Source of the DNA: Podospora anserina
Taxonomy: Eukaryota
Assembly: GCA_017654855.1 (NCBI GenBank)
Contig: CM030333.1
Location: 868,001-932,000 of the forward strand
Length of the DNA stretch: 64,000 nt
Direction of reading: 5' to 3'
This document shows, piece by piece, positions 16,646 to 23,400 of the stretch. Position 1 is the first letter of the stretch, and each line of letters begins with the position of its first letter. The notes beneath the pieces were generated by a model that made no database searches, was not told the origin of the DNA, and was given only the letters and a program-made list of their open reading frames with translations. Position numbers and translations under genes: made by a program.

Positions 16646-18145
16646 CGTGCGACCTTTGTTCTAACGAGCGCAAATAGAAAATTCGTGTCTGCCTATGTAT
16701 CGAAGTTTTCGAAGACAAACGAAAATGCAGGTGGTTTCGGTCCAAGAAGTGTCAGGCGGGGGAGGCCGGTTGACTTCGTAATAGGGCAGAAAGCAGAAGA
16801 GTGGCGGTCCGGCAGAAAGACGAAATCAAGAAATGAAACGGAGCAGAGCTGTCAAGAGCGAAGGAAGTGCGTCGGTATTAATCATCGTTGGTCTTTGTGG
16901 CCGTGATCGCAGGAAGGGGTCTGTCTGTCTGCTGGATGAGGGCGACGACGATTCGATCGATCCAGGGGCGGGATGTGATGGTTGAGCTTTTGTGCACTCC
17001 AGGTGGCTACCTTATCGCAGGACTGCACAGGTGCCCGTCGTTGTCCGACCGTCGGCGCTCCAGACGTCTGTACTGTGTGTCTGGGGTTCTCGACACAGGG
17101 AAGCCACAATTGGGCAGTTTGAAGAAGGGCAGATGGCTCGGCCGGGTGAGGGGCGGTGGTGGGAGGATTTCCAGCGTCCGACAAGTCGTTGTGGTTGCAC
17201 GAGGAAATCCGGTGAGGAGGCTTCCAGGGTTGCAGGTAGGCACCTTCTCTCTCTTTGCCCGCTGGAGCCAGTGGCAGCGGTTTGTCAGGCAAGCGGGCCG
17301 GCCCCGGTTTTATTTTATAGGCGGAGCTACCAAACAAACAAACCCGGACTTCTCAACGACCCAGGGTTATGCAGCTGACTTTCCTTTGCGCAGCTGCGCT
17401 GGCCATGCTGAATTATCAGCAATGCAAGTGCCCGAGCACAAACCGGATCCAAAGCAGGCGTTGATGACATTGGGTCGGAGGGGAGGCATCATTTGGGGGA
17501 CTTTTTGCTGTCAGCGCTCAGGCCGCCAGACCCCATCTAAGTTGACCAATCATCCACACATCCTCATTCCCGTCAACCTTGAGCCTCGATTCCAGCACCA
17601 CGGCCCCCATGTGTGCAGTTTGCAGATGCCCACGTCACGATGTTTATGAGCAGTGGTATCGGTAGCTGGAATAGTAGTGCTGTTGTTCTCACGATGTTGC
17701 TGCTTTAAACATTCCTTGTGACATGCTTTAGCTCCCTGATAGTTCCCCTGATATGTGTATCTAACCCTAACCCCAACCCGAGCAACACCCGCAAGCATGT
17801 TGCACTGGCTTCACAGTGCTTGGCAACCAACTCAACTTCAACTTCGCGACAGCGCGTTTCTACACCATCGCAGCCACAAGCAGGAAAAGAATTCAAAGGC
17901 ATAACCGTCTCACAGATTCTACTGGCAACCGACTTCTCGAATTTGATCATCACAAAGAGCGGCTTGACATTCAGGTGCAGCCTTCATACCTATCAACCGC
18001 CGCATCATCGCCAAATTTTCACTTCATCTTAACAATTCGGCCGCTCAGCTTGCAACTCAATCATCCACTGATATCCCAAACTTGGCATCAACCGTTTCAT
18101 CGACCACAACACCAGACCGCATCTTTCTCACGATTCAAGAGCACC

Positions 18146-19164
18146 ATGTGGCGCAGAAGCGGTCCTTCCAAAGCGACATCGACAAACGTCCAGTGCCAAA
18201 AATGTCTTAAACGAGATACGTACTTTTCATTTCACCGAAACTATTTCCATTTCCCCCATCTAACACTCACAGCACGGCACTATTCCTACGAATGCAAAGC
18301 TTCAGCCCAGGAGCGGCCGTATATTCCCCGACCCTCACGAACTCAGCAGCTGTTCAACCCCAAGCTCCAACCCAAGCTTACCAATGCTGTCCCGGATGAC
18401 ATTGAGAAGAAGTAAGCTCCCACTACCTGAGTCCACTGACCTCAAATGCCTAACTGTCCCACAGGAAGGGCGTAGCCGATAAGATCCTCGCTGAAAAGGA
18501 GGCCGAGCGTGCCAGGAAGCGAGAGCTGGAAAGGGACGAGGAAGAAGAACTGTCCGTAAAGGGTTCACCGCCCCCACGGCGGCACAGGTCGCCATCTTAC
18601 GACTCCGTATCCAGCATCTCGACCAGGTCCCCTTCTCCAGCCTCAAGGCGCAGTCCCAGTCCCCCAAGAAGAGAACGGATCAGCCGCGATATGGAGTTGT
18701 CTCCCCGTGGACATCCGGTTCGTCCACGATCTCTAAGCCCGGAGGAGCGCTATTCTAGGGAACCGTCAGCCATTCCGGAGAGAGATTACCCGCCTCGGCG
18801 ACGTTCCCCTTCGCCGAGCCAGGCCCGTTCACCCAGGCGCCATCGCGACTTTGACGATGAGCCTGAGCCTGAGCGTGCCCCTCGGCATGCGCCGCCCGGC
18901 AGAGACGCCGAACATGACTCGCACAGACGTCGGGGCTACTCGAGATCCAGGTCGAGATCTCCTGCGCGTTCTCCACCAAGGCGCGATGGGAGAGGCCGCG
19001 GTGATGGTCCTCGGAACCGGTTCAGGGACAGGGACGATGACCACCCCAGAGAAAGAAATGCGCCGCCAGCCCAGCAGCGGGCACCTCCGCCGCCGCGCGA
19101 AAGGAGTCTGAGTCCCTTCAGCAAGAGGTTGGCGCTGACACAGTCGATGAATATGGGTAGATAG
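18146..19164 (+). CDS. ZCCHC10-like zinc-knuckle protein with RS/RD-rich C-terminus; introns 18216-18275 (AT-AC) and 18412-18464
   Basis: CQKCLKR-G-HYSYEC knuckle after splicing, RPYIPRPSRTQQL, KKGVADKIL, then long SR/SP-rich tail ending RERSLSPFSKRLALTQSMN. Confidence 0.85.
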
Positions 19165-19229
19165 ATTGCAATAATTAGAGCGAATCAAATCTGGGTATCA
19201 TATGCCTACTTTTTTTCTCTGCAAAACCA

Positions 19230-19904
19230 TCAAGCAACAATTTCGTCTTGCTCATCAAGCCTTCGGGCCAACCCCAACTCCTCATCCTCGGCCTCCTTTT
19301 CTCTCCTGGCCTCTTCCTCTTCCTCCCGTTCACGTAGTTTAATCCCCTCCACAATTGCCGCCCCGTCCAGCATCCCATCCGCCTCCTTATCCTCACTTTC
19401 CTTGCTTCCCCTGTGACTCTGCTCGGCAACCTTCTTCTTCTCGGCTAATCGTTCTCTGACCATCCCCGCAATGGCATTATCCGTCCTCACATTCAGCACC
19501 TCCATCTTGGCGTTCAACTCTCTCTTCAGATCCCAGTTTGGTTTTTTGGGTTGGAGCTTGAAGAGGTCGATGCCCTTTTCTGCCGCCTGGGCTGCGTCGA
19601 TGGCGGCTTGGCGGTTGACTTCGTCTTGGAGGTCTGCTGCTTGTTCTTCGAGGGTGGGTGCCTCGAGGGAGAGAGTGGGGGGGGCTTCGAAGCCGAGTTT
19701 GGGGCCTTTGGTTTCGGGGTCGTAGTTGCGGCCGGAGAGGTGGAGGTGGGAAACTTGTTTTGTTGGGGGGGATTGGGAGCGGGAAGGGGAAGGGGCTTCG
19801 TCTGATGGGGAGGGTGAGGGTTGTTTGCGTTTTAGGGATTTGAGTTTTGCGAGGCGGGCTTTGCGGTCGTCGGTTGCTGCTGCGAGGGTGGTGTGGGAGG
19901 ACAT
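19230..19904 (-). CDS. cwf18: Pre-mRNA splicing factor Cwf18 (CCDC12 family)
   Basis: ATG 19904 in an AAAATG context; DRKARLAKLKSLKRK, LSGRNYDPETKGPKLGF, DLFKLQPKKPNWDLKR. Confidence 0.88.
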   Translation of the reverse strand: MSSHTTLAAATDDRKARLAKLKSLKRKQPSPSPSDEAPSPSRSQSPPTKQVSHLHLSGRNYDPETKGPKLGFEAPPTLSLEAPTLEEQAADLQDEVNRQAAIDAAQAAEKGIDLFKLQPKKPNWDLKRELNAKMEVLNVRTDNAIAGMVRERLAEKKKVAEQSHRGSKESEDKEADGMLDGAAIVEGIKLREREEEEEARREKEAEDEELGLARRLDEQDEIVA

Positions 19905-20403
19905 TTTTGTTGTGGTGTGGTGGTGGTTTTTCGGAGGGAATTGATGTTCCTGATGTTGTTTGACCGCGAATTGGTTCGAGGTACACAGTCGCGCCGCCTG
20001 TGAACAATTTCCAGTGGAGGATGATGTTGGATGTGGGTCCCTGACAGCGGACAGGGAAGCTTTCGACAGGGTTGGGGGGTTTGCGTGCCGAGAGGTGGGC
20101 TGCCGCTCGTTGCCGGCCGGAAGCTCTGCAGCCCCTCGCAATGCCGATTTTTTTTTTGGGAGCTGGATGACTTTCTCATCGTGATAAGAGAGACATTTCG
20201 GAGACGGCACCGGCGACCAGCGACCGGCGAACCCCCCTGAACAAATCGCTCGGGATTGCCAGTCCAACCACAACATGCCCAACTTCGACGACGAATTCGA
20301 CGCATGACGACCTCACCCCACGTCCTCCCGCCCGATTCTCATGGCGCGCGACTGCATCCCGCGCCGTCGCAGAGGCACCACAATCGTCTAGTCGCATCCG
20401 GGG

Positions 20404-23400
20404 ATGATACTGCGGGCCGGCTTGGTCGGCCGATCATGTCTGGCTCGAGCCTGTCAACGTCGGTCCCAAATACCCCTTATACACCCCTTACTGCCGCCAC
20501 CACCAATATCCCAAACATCGAGAGTGCAGAGGTCAGAGCAACTGCTGGCCCAGCTCGCCCGAGATGCGCCCTTCACCACTACCACCAGATTGTCCTTCCA
20601 GAGCGACGACTCAGATATCATTCCGCCATGGGAGAAGTCTTTGGGAAAGGTCGACAGTCATATGAGCCCCGATGACATGGAGGAAACAGCCAAGGCGAAT
20701 CCAGATCCTGCGAACAATGTCAGCGAGACATCGCCAGAAACAACACCAGTTCCCTCTTCACTGGGGCCGGAGGAAATAGAAAGGAACTATGCGAGCACAG
20801 CTGAGCCTGGGGTGGCTAGCCACACGTTCAATGCTGCGGATCGGGACAATCAAGTACCCCAACTTGAACCCTACCGTTTCGCCGAGAGGGGAGGAAAGCT
20901 CGCTTGGGGTCCAGGTCACAGAGGCAACTGGTTGGACTCATGGGAGGCCAGGTTCCGGCCGCTGTACAGAGCCCTGAAGTCAGGGCGCGCCTATTCACGC
21001 ATGTTGGCCGATGTGGAGGATTTCCCTGACTGGGGAAAAACAGAGATGCTTTTCGAGGCAGCCGAAATCGAGCAGGGGGAGTTTAAGGAGCGCCACTGCG
21101 GATTTGGCAACGTAGATGAGTACATGGCGAAATGGATGGACTCGATGCTCTACCTGCTCCGCTACGACCCAGAGCTAGCTCCCAAATTTCTCCGGGCGAC
21201 TTTTGAGGGGTTTCTGACGCCGAGGTGGGCGGTGAATGATACGGTTGAGTTCCTTGCCAAATGGTGCTCGTTGTCTCGCTCAAGCAAAAAGACTACGCAT
21301 GAGCTCGCCGAAACGATCCGTCATATTCTGCGGACTCGCACTCTATACATGCTCGAGTTCACCCAACAAACGCTGTTTCTTCTGACGAGAGATATGGAGG
21401 CCGAAGCTCTGTGGAATCTGTATCGGGACCTGCTGCAGTACGCTCACCCGCTTCACCCCTACACTTGGTACACTATAGCCCGTCGTCTTTCTCGGGATCC
21501 GAGGTACAAGTCCAGGGCGTTGGATCTGCTGGAGGAAGCCATCACCAGCGGCGAGCTCCACGGCGACGCGCCCCTGACCATGATGCTCAGCACATGCATC
21601 CTAGACTTTCAAGGTGTGGAAGACGGCCATTTAGAGCAGTTGGGGCGGCTGCGCCGGGAGCTGACCACACGGTTGCTCAACCTGATCACGCCTAACAAGT
21701 ATACATACAGTGTCATGGTCCGAGGCATGCGAGCCACCGGTGACTACCAGGGAGCGTGGACCATCTACCAGATCATGATTGATCAGGGCATCGAGCCTGA
21801 GCAGTTCATCTTCTCCAACCTGCTAAACGTGGCAAAGCGCACCAACACCATCGAGCCTGTGCTCCAGACCCTGGAAGAGCTTGTTCCCGAGGCGCTGAAG
21901 AGCAGGCACATCTGGAACGACATCATCGACTCTGTCTTGGTGATATCTCGGCAGCACGACCTCCAGCTGAAGGAGGAAGGCCAACGGAATGCGCATGCTG
22001 CGTTGACGTTCCGGGCCCTGCTGCTGGTCTATGCAAGGTTCTATCGGTACAAGGAACTCCAGTCTCTTATCCCTGTCAGGCTGGGGCCGCCGTATGAGAC
22101 AAAAGAGCAGGTTTTTGCAACTGCGACCTCAGATATGGATGTTGTCTTTTTGCGAAAGATTGATCTCATCCTCGAGCGCCTTCCTGAGCGGGTTGAGAAA
22201 CCGGCGGTTCCGGGGTCGGATGTCATTAGCATTATGCTCAGGGGGTACACACGAGCGGTTTGGAAGGCGGGAGAGGTTATCAGCTTTTACAAGCGGCTCA
22301 GGGCGAAGCTTATGCAGGGACAATACACCGTGTGTCAGATTTGTCGGGAGCAGGACAGCCGAGTGCATGATGCTATTTTGGGCTCGTTGCTCAAGATTCC
22401 AAAGTGGAACAATGTCGCGTGGGCTCCTGCGGAGAACTCCAAGAGAGCGGCGGAGAGCCGTGATGCGTTGCAGGCGGGTTTTGGTATTTTGGAGGATATG
22501 ATTGAGGGTGCCATGTGTGCGGAGAGGGTGTTGAAGGAGGAAGAGGAGGAAGAGCTGTTGGCGAAGAGGATGGCGGATGATGACTCGCCTGCTGATGAGG
22601 AGGCGGTGCGGACTATCGAGAGTGTCCTGCCAAGTCAGGAGGATGCTGTCTTGTCGGAACAAGAGCCTTTGCTGATCGAGGGGGGCGATGGTCTACCAAC
22701 TGAAGATTCAGCAGCTCAAGATATAATGACCGAAGAACATATTTTAGTCGAAGAACATCCACCACCAGAAGAAGAGCACCGGCCAGCTGAAGAAGATTAC
22801 CTAGCGCCCTCAGAAGAAAACCTGCCAACGAAAGATTACCTTTCGCCCTCAGAAGAAAACCTGTCGACGGAAGTAAACCTGCCAACGGAAGAAAACCTGC
22901 CAGCCCAAGATGGCTTGCCTGTCAAAGATGACCTACCTGTCGAAGAGCAGTACTTACCTGCCGAGGAAGACCTATCGGTCGAAGAAAGCCTTCGAGGGTA
23001 CAAAGAATACCTTCAGGCTGAGGAAGACCTCCCAGCCGGAGAAGACTACCTACCACCTCCAGAAGCCGAACGTCCTGCAACTCAGGAAGAGCTACAGCCA
23101 ACTGAGGACGAAGCCCAAGAAGAACCGCTTCTCACCACCGACCAGCCTCAAGAACCCACCGAACCACCACCCTTATCCGAACCCTCGAAACCATCACCCC
23201 CAGAACAACCCCGACAATCAGCCCCCTCACCCCAGCAACTCCTCCCTCTCCTCGACCCAGACCTCGTCACCCCCCTCCACCCGGCCCCCCGCCCAGGCGC
23301 AGGCTGGCCCTCTTTCAAAGCCCAGCAGGCCCAATGGGCGGCCTTCCACAAAGAGGAAACGTACCTCTACTCCATGTCGCCCGCCCCGACAATCTACACC

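What the first reader, a model, noticed from the sequence alone, without database searches (positions are those of the whole stretch)
18216..18275. Apparent U2-type AT-AC intron that builds the zinc knuckle of an RS-rich protein
Seen: AAA CGA G|ATACGT...CTAAC ACTCACAGCAC|GG CAC TAT. Removing this 60-nt AT...AC segment gives CQKCLKRGHYSYEC, an exact C-X2-C-X4-H-X4-C knuckle. Retention stays in frame but puts 20 residues inside the knuckle. The nearby canonical pair (GT 18220, AG 18272; 53 nt) shifts frame to an early stop. The donor is the GTACGT used by other introns here with G+1 changed to A, not the U12 consensus ATATCC. Established: ascomycetes lack the minor spliceosome, and the major spliceosome can process A...C termini. 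Inference: a rare intron with three outcomes (functional, knuckle-dead, NMD) in an RS-domain protein could act as a splicing-fidelity sensor or autoregulatory switch, and gene predictors would mis-model it.
Basis: partly seen in the sequence, partly recalled or inferred. Interest (0 to 1): 0.88.

Follow-up and report, generated by a model that had tools for sequence, protein, structure and literature searches.

The report
Conserved AT-AC intron splitting zinc knuckle
A 60-base intron with the rare AT...AC ends really is cut out of a Podospora anserina zinc-knuckle gene, evidently by the ordinary spliceosome; the same odd intron sits at the same spot in many other filamentous ascomycetes and is often mis-annotated, but nothing shows that it acts as a regulatory switch.

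Summary
The window is Podospora anserina S mat+; the gene is PODANS_2_1460, a zf-CCHC_3 (ZCCHC10-like) protein with an RS-rich tail. Contigs of three RNA-like runs from three studies all join 18215 to 18276 (60 nt skipped, ends AT..AC, no ambiguity). The same contigs join 18411 to 18465 (GT..AG). A DNA-like run carries the unspliced sequence unchanged. Splicing gives a 301-aa protein with CQKCLKRGHYSYEC; the reference model keeps the 60 nt in frame (321 aa).

The donor (ATACGT) and branch site (CTAAC) are major-spliceosome type with A for G at +1. There is no U12 motif, and Ascomycota lack the minor spliceosome according to the literature.

New here: 33 of 38 distinct intron-bearing sequences at this Gly codon (32 metagenome sequences plus the window) have AT-AC; 4 have GT-AG and 1 has AT-AA. 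Gene models from Sordariomycetes, Eurotiomycetes and Leotiomycetes carry the retained-intron signature.

The "sensor/switch" idea is unsupported: the in-frame retention and the nearby AG are not conserved, and the intron interior is no more conserved than intron 2. It is a new, deeply conserved member of the known U2-type AT-AC ("type II") class.

The parts
18146..18215 (+). Exon 1: ATG to the first base of the Gly codon; encodes MWRRSGPSKATSTNVQCQKCLKR + G(1/3), the C-X2-C half of the knuckle.
   Evidence: the RNA-like contigs end this piece at 18215.
18216..18275 (+). Intron 1, 60 nt, phase 1, termini AT...AC (U2-type 'type II').
   Evidence: Skipped in contigs of X1, X2 and X9, ends AT..AC, both=0; present in DNA-like run X17.
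18216..18221 (+). 5' splice site ATACGT, preceded by exon AG (18214-18215); U2-type donor consensus with A at +1.
   Evidence: Orthologous donors are ATATGT 14, ATAAGT 10, ATAGGT 3, ATACGT 3, ATAGGA 2, ATAAGA 1; none is ATATCC.
18260..18264 (+). Branch-site motif CTAAC; the branch A at 18263 lies 13 nt before the first exon-2 base by the script's count.
   Evidence: A CTRAY motif with branch A 11-13 nt before the 3' splice site is found in 30 of 33 orthologous AT-AC introns.
18271..18272 (+). AG that is bypassed (CACAG|CAC); it is not used as the 3' splice site.
   Evidence: No joint ending at 18272 in any laid contig. Using it with GT 18220 would frameshift to a stop after 66 aa. A similar AG is present in only 16 of 33 orthologues.
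18274..18275 (+). 3' terminal AC of intron 1.
   Evidence: Joint 18215->18276.
18276..18411 (+). Exon 2: GG of the Gly codon, then HYSYEC (second half of the knuckle) and the conserved ERPYIPRPSRTQQLFNPKL block.
18412..18464 (+). Intron 2, 53 nt, GTAAGC...CTAAC...CACAG; canonical GT-AG, phase 2. It serves as the internal control.
   Evidence: Joint 18411->18465, GT..AG, in the same three contigs. A GT/GC donor was picked at this offset in most orthologous sequences that have intron 2.
18465..19164 (+). Exon 3: RS/RD-rich tail ending ...ERSLSPFSKRLALTQSMNMGR and the stop codon.

Best explanation
18216-18275 is a constitutively spliced U2-type (major-spliceosome) AT-AC 'type II' intron in the P. 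anserina homologue of the zinc-knuckle protein ZCCHC10 (PODANS_2_1460).

**Proposed mechanism**
1. The donor AG|AUACGU pairs with U1 and U6 like an ordinary fungal GUACGU donor, apart from the A at +1.
2. The CUAAC branch site is used for step 1.
3. At step 2 the first and last intron bases must form a non-Watson-Crick pair. A(+1) pairs with C(-1), not with G(-1). So the AC 13 nt downstream of the branch A (script count) is used, and the nearer AG (18271-18272) is passed over.

The product is the 301-aa protein with an intact CCHC knuckle.

**Why the odd termini persist**
The two termini are a compensating pair. Either single reversion (GT-AC or AT-AG) should block step 2. The state is therefore locked in, and it has been inherited at this Gly codon across leotiomyceta. 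It has occasionally been converted to GT-AG (Dothideomycetidae-like sequences) or lost (Pleosporales).

**Shown versus inferred**
- Shown: the junctions, the sequence signals, and the comparative pattern.
- Inferred: use of the major spliceosome, the A-C pairing at step 2, and the lock-in explanation for conservation.
For: **Junctions.** 18215->18276 (AT..AC, both=0) and 18411->18465 (GT..AG) occur in one contig each of 3 of 3 RNA-like runs laid, from 3 studies. The DNA-like run carries the unspliced sequence with 0 differences. Five RNA-like runs hold 0.88 of the sampled words. By my own arithmetic, that is what a fully spliced transcript without intron words would give (173 of 1471 words lost).

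**Product.** A 301-aa ORF with an exact knuckle. Pfam PF13917 matches in two stretches split by the insert.

**U2-type signals in 33 distinct AT-AC orthologous introns**
- 30 of 33 donors have +2..+6 pentamers (TATGT, TAAGT, TAGGT, TACGT) that also occur in the GT donors of intron 2 of the same genes.
- 0 of 33 has ATATCC.
- 30 of 33 have CTRAY with the branch A 11-13 nt from the 3' splice site. This is the usual fungal spacing: the passage in PMC4324775 gives a peak at 11-14 bp.

**Minor spliceosome.** Reported absent from Ascomycota/Dikarya (passages in PMC10639083, PMC2396436, PMC2846911).

**Rescue of G1->A by G->C.** Rescue at the last intron base in yeast, and U2-dependent AT-AC introns in SCN4A/SCN5A, are described in a passage of PMC1557818.

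**Conservation**
- 62 distinct sequences from 78 metagenome loci plus the window: 33 AT-AC, 1 AT-AA, 4 GT-AG, 24 without an intron. No GT-AC and no AT-AG.
- 46 of 52 database proteins with an insert at this site begin with D (G|AT) and 46 end with R (C|GG). 29 of 36 truncated models have R before HYSYEC.
- Named species with the signature: Podospora, Chaetomium, Colletotrichum, Tolypocladium, Akanthomyces, Hirsutella, Penicillium, Emergomyces, Cudoniella.
- L047 encodes a protein 100% identical over 266 aa to Hyaloscypha finlandica P0300 and has AT-AC in its DNA.
Against: - The three spliced runs are only guessed to be RNA.
- They are contigs, so isoform ratios, retention and rare cryptic products cannot be seen.
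- Use of the major spliceosome is inferred. No genome is held for this window, so I could not check it for U11/U12/U4atac/U6atac genes.
- The lock-in explanation is not a test. 33 of 38 could also reflect selection for the AT-AC state.
- The nominal excess of 3n lengths (17 of 33, binomial P=0.023) and of open retention frames (8 of 33 against about 10%, P=0.014) points mildly the other way. The sequences are related, however (L002/L003 and L051-L053 are near-duplicates), so these P values are inflated.
- Class assignments of most metagenome loci rest on 45-85% protein identity.
- The 'no intron' class mixes true loss with probable cDNA contigs such as L023.
Confidence: 0.85

Rival explanations
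1. Regulatory switch. The AT-AC intron is kept because its inefficient or error-prone splicing sets the level of this spliceosome-associated protein. The outcomes would be a functional, a knuckle-dead (retention) and an NMD (GT18220-AG18272) form, which could work as autoregulation or fidelity sensing.
For: - The host protein's human relative ZCCHC10 gave spectra only in the catalytic C complex (figure legend in PMC3923134). The A-C terminal pair matters at the catalytic second step.
- AT-AC is kept in 33 of 38 distinct intron-bearing sequences.
- There is a nominal excess of 3n and open retention frames.
Against: - Only the AT-AC-spliced form is in the contigs of 3 of 3 runs (weak, because contigs drop rare forms).
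- The retention frame is open in only 8 of 33, and 16 of 33 would frameshift.
- The upstream AG is present in only 16 of 33.
- The intron interior is no more conserved than intron 2: higher in 10 of 17 related pairs and lower in 7, mostly within a few points.
- Pleosporales do without the intron, and Dothideomycetidae-like sequences have GT-AG.
Confidence: 0.07
2. Fossil of a U12-type intron. This concerns origin and is compatible with the mechanism above. An ancestral U12-type AT-AC intron at this Gly codon would have survived the loss of the minor spliceosome in Dikarya by mutating its donor and branch site to U2-type while keeping the AT-AC ends.
For: - The intron is phase 1.
- U12-to-U2 conversion is a described fate of such introns (passage citing Burge et al. 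in PMC2846911).
- AT-AC appears ancestral in leotiomyceta.
Against: - No orthologue examined has a U12-type donor. 0 of 38 intron-bearing DNA sequences has ATATCC or GTATCC. No retained-intron translation begins D-I-L, which would be the ATATCC signature.
- The one animal-like locus (L076) has no intron at this site.
- A search for ZCCHC10 with U12 found only an unrelated sheep genomics paper (listing only). Supplements of minor-intron catalogues could not be opened.
- A de novo double mutation or intron gain is equally possible.
Confidence: 0.15
3. Artefact or non-spliceosomal event. Possibilities are an assembly or sequencing error at 18216/18275, strains that lack the 60 nt in their DNA, a decaying gene whose real product keeps the insert, or excision by an Ire1/tRNA-ligase type pathway.
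For: - The deposited reference protein keeps the insert.
- The spliced runs are not on record as RNA.
Against: - The DNA-like run X17 matches the window with 0 differences.
- The same contigs that skip the 60 nt also skip the canonical intron 2 exactly.
- 32 other distinct metagenome sequences have AT and AC at the homologous borders, with a CTRAY branch motif at the normal distance in 30 of the 33 AT-AC sequences (window included).
- The insert would break a knuckle that is invariant in the 20-protein alignment A1.
- No Rfam family matches 17000-20500.
Confidence: 0.02

Closest known systems
[quoted passage not shown] Passages of Sheth et al. 2006, PMC1557818, read.
   Same: AT and AC termini on an otherwise U2-type donor. 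They are spliced where U12 signals are absent. The borders are conserved over long times (human to puffer fish in that paper; several fungal classes here).
   Different: This one is in a 60-nt fungal intron of an organism group reported to have no minor spliceosome at all. It lies in a gene for a spliceosome-associated protein. U2 dependence has not been shown biochemically here.
U12-type (minor spliceosome) AT-AC introns
   Same: Terminal dinucleotides AT-AC, a non-zero phase, and a short branch-to-3' splice site distance.
   Different: There is no ATATCC donor and no TCCTTAAC branch site (0 of 33). The host phylum is reported to lack U11/U12/U4atac/U6atac. The short branch distance is ordinary for fungal U2 introns.
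Yeast first/last-nucleotide suppression (G1->A rescued by G->C at the last intron base). Mentioned in PMC1557818; I recall the original report as Parker and Siliciano 1993 and did not read it.
   Same: The same compensating pair, and the same prediction that an AG is skipped in favour of an AC when +1 is A.
   Different: Those were engineered mutants with reduced efficiency. This is a natural intron kept across classes of fungi.
AT-AC junctions counted in RNA-seq surveys of filamentous ascomycetes. Passages only, for each: Trichoderma longibrachiatum 69 of 14305 (PMC4324775); SnowyOwl models 0.03% (PMC4084796); Fusarium graminearum (PMC3577648); Frey and Pucker 2020 (PMC7072748).
   Same: The same class of junction in the same kind of organism.
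   Different: The passages I read give counts only. None names this gene or reports a conserved AT-AC position. Their supplements could not be opened.
Autoregulatory retained or 'poison' introns of splicing factors, such as SR protein genes. This comparison is recalled and comes from no call.
   Same: An RS-rich, spliceosome-linked protein whose own transcript carries an unusual intron.
   Different: No conserved alternative isoform, no conserved intron interior and no NMD-prone design across orthologues.

Membership tests
U2-type AT-AC (type II) intron | Intron begins AT and ends AC | tested here: met
   18216-17 AT and 18274-75 AC. The DNA-like run agrees with 0 differences.
U2-type AT-AC (type II) intron | Excised in vivo exactly at those borders | tested here: met
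   Joint 18215->18276, both=0, in contigs of 3 of 3 RNA-like runs from 3 studies. The runs are guessed, not recorded, as RNA.
U2-type AT-AC (type II) intron | The donor matches the U2-type consensus except at +1 | tested here: met
   ATACGT against GTACGT. 30 of 33 orthologous AT donors share +2..+6 with the GT donors of intron 2 in the same genes.
U2-type AT-AC (type II) intron | Splicing depends on U1/U2/U4/U6, not on U11/U12/U4atac/U6atac | not testable with these tools
   Inferred from the reported absence of the minor spliceosome in Ascomycota. No genome is held for the window.
U12-type AT-AC intron | Donor ATATCC(TT) | tested here: not met
   The window has ATACGT; 0 of 33 orthologous AT-AC introns has ATATCC.
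U12-type AT-AC intron | Branch site TCCTTAAC about 10-15 nt from the 3' end | tested here: not met
   The window has CATCTAAC. The orthologues have (G/A/T)CTGAC or CTAAC, the fungal U2-type motif.
zf-CCHC_3 / ZCCHC10-like zinc-knuckle proteins (Pfam PF13917) | Match to PF13917 above the curated cut-off | tested here: met
   52.5 bits against a cut-off of 27, E 4.4e-14, split by the insert. All listed homologues carry PF13917.
zf-CCHC_3 / ZCCHC10-like zinc-knuckle proteins (Pfam PF13917) | Intact C-X2-C-X4-H-X4-C followed by the RPSRTQQL block | tested here: met
   CQKCLKRGHYSYEC after splicing; these columns are invariant in A1.
zf-CCHC_3 / ZCCHC10-like zinc-knuckle proteins (Pfam PF13917) | Orthology to human ZCCHC10 and association with the spliceosome | not tested
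   One NCBI record is named 'zinc finger CCHC-type containing 10' (Aspergillus melleus, P0207). Human ZCCHC10 was found in the C complex (PMC3923134). No fungal data exist, and no solved structure was found.
Autoregulatory / poison intron | Conserved alternative isoform or conserved intronic element | tested here: not met
   8 of 33 open retention frames, 16 of 33 with an upstream AG, and an interior no more conserved than intron 2.
Autoregulatory / poison intron | Isoform ratio responds to the level of the protein or to NMD | not testable with these tools
   Only contigs were available, and the single read-laying run is used.

The most novel reading that the evidence does not exclude
The A-C terminal pair is not merely locked in but selected. 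The ZCCHC10-like protein would be a catalytic-stage (C complex) spliceosome factor, and the yield of its own mRNA would depend on how well the spliceosome carries out the second step on a non-G-G terminal pair. The intron would then give feedback between second-step capacity or fidelity and the supply of this factor. That would explain why 33 of 38 distinct lineage sequences keep AT-AC.
Probability: 0.07. Interest if true: 0.85.

Novelty: new member of a known kind. Interest (0 to 1): 0.5.

Why it matters
1. It is a clean natural example, with transcript support, of a major-spliceosome AT-AC intron in a lineage reported to have no minor spliceosome. It has kept its position and termini across at least three classes of Pezizomycotina. 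It shows in nature the first/last-nucleotide pairing rule known from yeast mutants. No GT-AC or AT-AG intermediate was seen in 38 distinct intron-bearing sequences.

2. It is a recurrent annotation trap. The P. anserina reference protein and many deposited models in Colletotrichum, Neurospora, Penicillium, Tolypocladium and others carry a broken zinc knuckle. Either the intron is translated through, or the first exon is dropped. The broken models can be found with one simple pattern: D...R between CQKCLKR and HYSYEC.

3. The host gene is the fungal relative of a human C-complex protein. This gives a concrete, cheap system (P. anserina genetics) for asking whether unusual termini tune a splicing factor, and for asking whether the intron descends from a U12-type intron.

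Tried and rejected
- **Whole genome.** None is held, so there was no search of the organism for minor-spliceosome snRNAs and no genome-wide AT-AC count.
- **Sequencing runs.** No RNA holder is listed. 16 runs are only guessed to be RNA; 3 of them plus one DNA-like run were laid.
- **Rfam.** 0 matches on 17000-20500 at E<=1.
- **PDB sequence search.** With the intron-less Alternaria-type N-terminus, the only hits were retroviral nucleocapsid knuckles at E 0.16 and 0.38, so no solved relative was found.
- **ESM Atlas.** It gave only 'Ascomycota, PF13917' and was useless for class assignment.
- **Earlier findings of this scan.** Nothing relevant.
- **Literature.** Searches for AT-AC with Podospora, Neurospora, Pezizomycotina or 'zinc knuckle', for 'AT-AC introns' with fungi and U2-type, for P. 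anserina annotation terms, and for ZCCHC10 with U12 found no description of this intron. The library lacks many journals, supplements are closed, and I did not find the P. anserina RNA-seq re-annotation paper. The corrected model may therefore already exist in a curated annotation.
- **A U12-like branch-to-3' splice site distance (11-13 nt).** Rejected as a signal. The four GT-AG versions at the same site have their last CTRAC-like motif at a similar distance (my reading of the sequences printed). T. longibrachiatum introns in general peak at 11-14 bp.
- **Excess of 3n lengths and open retention frames.** Nominal P is 0.023 and 0.014, but the sequences are not independent. I did not accept this as evidence.
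- **Extra conservation of the intron interior.** None was found.
- **Ire1-type excision.** Judged by eye, the borders do not fit the CNG|NNG loop motif as I recall it; I ran no fold. The spliceosomal signals are complete.
- **'No intron' loci.** They could not be cleanly split into true loss and cDNA contigs. The exception is the Pleosporales-type loci on 20-135 kb contigs.
Full report
**What is there**

The window comes from Podospora anserina S mat+. The unspliced translation of 18146-18412 is 100% identical to the N-terminus of the deposited protein PODANS_2_1460 (P0002, 321 aa).

The gene starts at ATG 18146 and has three exons: 18146-18215, 18276-18411 and 18465-19164.
- Intron 2 (18412-18464, GTAAGC...CTAAC...CACAG, 53 nt) is canonical.
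- Intron 1 (18216-18275, 60 nt) reads ATACGTACTT...CATCTAACACTCACAGCAC. It interrupts a Gly codon after its first base (phase 1).

Removing both introns gives a 301-aa protein with CQKCLKRGHYSYEC. It shares 259 identical residues over 303 aligned columns with the 302-aa Triangularia verruculosa protein.

The unspliced translation matches Pfam zf-CCHC_3 (PF13917) in two stretches, cut exactly by the insert (52.5 bits, cut-off 27). The alternative GT 18220 / AG 18272 intron (53 nt) runs into a stop after 66 aa.

**Is it spliced?**

No run is on record as RNA. However, 16 runs of 'organism A' are guessed to be RNA and hold 0.82-0.88 of the sampled words. Six DNA-like runs hold all of them.

I laid three RNA-like runs from three studies, plus one DNA-like run.
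- In each RNA-like run, one contig (5977, 2342 and 2182 nt) lies on the stretch in three pieces with no other differences.
- The joints are 18215->18276 (skips 60, ends AT..AC, no positional ambiguity) and 18411->18465 (skips 53, GT..AG).
- The DNA-like contig (24,661 nt) covers 17800-19300 without a difference.

The same contigs remove a textbook GT-AG intron precisely, so they are mRNA-derived. The AT and AC are genomic. A share of 0.88 is what a fully spliced transcript would give, since 173 of 1471 possible 31-mers touch an intron (my arithmetic). Contigs cannot show minor isoforms, so I can say nothing about low-level retention or cryptic splicing.

**Which spliceosome?**

- The donor AG|ATACGT is a fungal U2-type donor with A at +1.
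- The branch motif CTAAC lies 13 nt before exon 2 (script count).
- There is no ATATCC and no TCCTTAAC.
- Ascomycota/Dikarya are reported to lack minor introns and minor snRNAs (passages read in PMC10639083, PMC2396436 and PMC2846911).
- I could not check this genome itself.

The intron thus fits the known 'AT-AC type II' class, which the major spliceosome removes. Sheth et al. (PMC1557818, passages) describe the class. They cite SCN4A and SCN5A as the proven cases and mention hypothesised cases in fungal xylanase genes. They also recall that in yeast a G-to-A change at the first intron base is rescued by G-to-C at the last.

That rule explains why the AG at 18271-18272, which is nearer the branch point, is passed over in favour of the AC. 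This step is inferred, not shown here.

**Comparative evidence (the main addition)**

*Proteins.*
- Of the 120 best homologues of the P. anserina N-terminus, 78 have an intact knuckle. 28 have an in-frame insert between CQKCLKR and HYSYEC, and 14 lack the C-X2-C half.
- Two more searches and a search of cluster representatives brought the total to 403 proteins: 313 intact, 52 with an insert, 36 without C-X2-C, and 2 other.
- 46 of the 52 inserts begin with D, the reading of G|AT.
- 46 of the 52 end with R, the reading of C|GG or C|GC.
- 29 of the 36 truncated models have R directly before HYSYEC.
- Only 4-5 inserts have the G...G pattern expected for GT...AG.

These proteins are translations through the intron, or models that dodge it. 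They reveal the intron's terminal bases in named species:
- Sordariomycetes: Podospora, Chaetomium, six Colletotrichum species, two Tolypocladium species, Akanthomyces and Hirsutella.
- Eurotiomycetes: three Penicillium species and Emergomyces.
- Leotiomycetes: Cudoniella.
- Candelaria (Candelariomycetes) and Clarireedia show R before H.

(Names are. Lineages were checked for Cudoniella, Candelaria, Hyaloscypha, Neodothiora and Oleoguttula. The other class assignments are from my own knowledge.)

*DNA.* One metagenome scan with a 20-protein alignment returned 80 loci. 78 of them contain both halves of the knuckle.

| State at the Gly codon | Loci (of 78) | Distinct sequences (of 62, window included) |
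|---|---|---|
| AT-AC intron | 39 | 33 |
| AT-AA intron | 1 (L025) | 1 |
| GT-AG intron | 4 (L059, L061, L075, L080) | 4 |
| No intron | 34 | 24 |

No GT-AC or AT-AG was seen.

Features of the 33 distinct AT-AC introns:
- Donors: ATATGT 14, ATAAGT 10, ATAGGT 3, ATACGT 3, ATAGGA 2, ATAAGA 1.
- Lengths: 47-62 nt.
- A CTRAY motif with its A 11-13 nt from the 3' end in 30 of 33.

Intron 2 of the same genes has ordinary donors such as GTGAGT, GTAAGT, GTAGGT, GTACGT and GTATGT (the donors were picked by a heuristic).

*Assignment of loci by tblastn against the named proteins.*
- L047 equals Hyaloscypha finlandica (100% over 266 aa): AT-AC.
- L072-L074 are close to Cadophora (83%): AT-AC. The Cadophora model itself is 'intact', so some annotation pipelines already splice AT-AC here.
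- Chaetomium-like, Xylariaceae-like, Penicillium-like and Exophiala-like loci: AT-AC.
- L051-L053 are tentatively Botryosphaeriales-like (58-63%): AT-AC.
- The GT-AG loci are nearest to Cladosporium, Cryoendolithus and other Mycosphaerellales, and to Neodothiora (Dothideales).
- The Alternaria-type loci lie on 20-135 kb contigs. L010's first 110 residues are 100% identical to Alternaria burnsii P0121 (96% over 362 aa by tblastn). They lack both introns.

*Reading.* AT-AC at this site goes back at least to the common ancestor of Sordariomycetes, Leotiomycetes and Eurotiomycetes. Within Dothideomycetes there was a conversion to GT-AG and a loss in Pleosporales. The direction of change is a parsimony inference on a class tree that I recall. 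Outgroups (Pezizomycetes and beyond) were not resolved.

**Why is it kept?**

The simplest account is a lock-in. AT and AC compensate each other, and each single reversion should stall the second step. The pair can then only be left by loss of the intron or by a double change. The absence of GT-AC and AT-AG among 38 distinct intron-bearing sequences fits this, and so do the rare GT-AG and intron-less lineages.

I tested three predictions of a regulatory design.
1. *A conserved in-frame retention isoform.* Only 8 of 33 AT-AC introns are both 3n and free of stops, 16 are not 3n, and 9 of the 17 that are 3n have stops. The nominal excess over about 10% (baseline from the Frey and Pucker table, PMC7072748) rests on near-duplicate sequences.
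2. *A conserved cryptic GT...AG pair.* The GT is just +5/+6 of the donor consensus. An AG within the last 8 nt occurs in 16 of 33.
3. *A conserved intron interior.* In 17 related pairs, intron 1 identity is higher than intron 2 identity in 10 and lower in 7, and it is close to third-codon-position identity.

None supports the three-outcome switch. What remains untested is whether the efficiency of A-C splicing itself is used.

**The host gene**

The protein has a zf-CCHC_3 knuckle, a conserved RPSRTQQL(F/L)NPKL block, an RS/RD-rich tail and a conserved C-terminus ERSLSPFSKRLALTQ. One NCBI record calls a homologue 'zinc finger CCHC-type containing 10'.

Human ZCCHC10 gave spectra only in the catalytic C complex in a spliceosome proteomics study (figure legend of PMC3923134). 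It is listed among interactors of the spliceosomal protein FRA10AC1 (passages of PMC10048706). Orthology and a splicing role for the fungal protein are not shown. No solved structure of a relative was found.

**Novelty and score**

U2-type AT-AC introns are known, including deeply conserved ones. AT-AC junctions are also counted in ascomycete RNA-seq surveys. My searches found no description of this intron or of its conservation. The library is incomplete, however, and supplements were closed.

I rate it a new member of a known kind. It has real but moderate interest: a natural, ancient A-C terminal pair in a lineage without a minor spliceosome, located in a spliceosome-linked gene, and a widespread annotation error. 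Interest 0.5.

Noticed in passing
L025 (intron at the knuckle Gly codon); protein P0384: One metagenome locus, closest to Helotiales proteins, has AT...AA instead of AT...AC at the same site. One database ORF has S (AGY) instead of R before HYSYEC. An A-A terminal pair may be tolerated, or these may be sequence errors.
   Followed up: partly
L005-L012, L014, L015, L017, L020: Pleosporales-type orthologues lack both intron 1 and intron 2 on genomic contigs of 20-135 kb (L010: first 110 residues 100% identical to Alternaria burnsii P0121). The whole gene is intron-less in that order.
   Followed up: partly
L059, L061, L075, L080; proteins P0252, P0264: GT-AG versions of the same intron occur in sequences nearest to Cladosporium, Mycosphaerellales and Dothideales. 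This looks like a double-change conversion of AT-AC within Dothideomycetidae.
   Followed up: partly
window 17762-17780: CTAACCCTAACCCCAACCC is a short telomere-repeat-like run about 370 nt upstream of the ATG. It lies just upstream of the stretch that was laid (17800-19300), so transcript cover there was not examined.
   Followed up: no
protein P0252: A zf-CCHC_3 protein filed under Quercus suber is most similar to Capnodiales-like fungal sequences. It carries a GT...AG-type retained insert. This is probably fungal contamination in a plant assembly.
   Followed up: no
protein P0008 (Apiosordaria backusii, 472 aa): This gene model drops the C-X2-C half of the knuckle. It also runs past the normal C-terminus into about 170 extra residues of low-complexity sequence, so it is probably a mis-fused model.
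   Followed up: no
window 19230-20312, minus strand: A convergent 360-aa ORF begins to overlap only about 70 nt after the stop of the zinc-knuckle gene. The RNA-like contigs run on beyond 19300, so the two transcripts may overlap at their 3' ends.
   Followed up: no
L032, L037, L078, L079 (Chaetomium-like loci), intron 1: The 3' half of the intron (…CAAGCTCGCTCGTAGCTGACAGTCGCAGAAC) is much better conserved among these relatives than the 5' half. The recurrent CAG(A/C)AC ending is common in Sordariales-like sequences. Whether the skipped AG helps early 3' splice site recognition is open.
   Followed up: no
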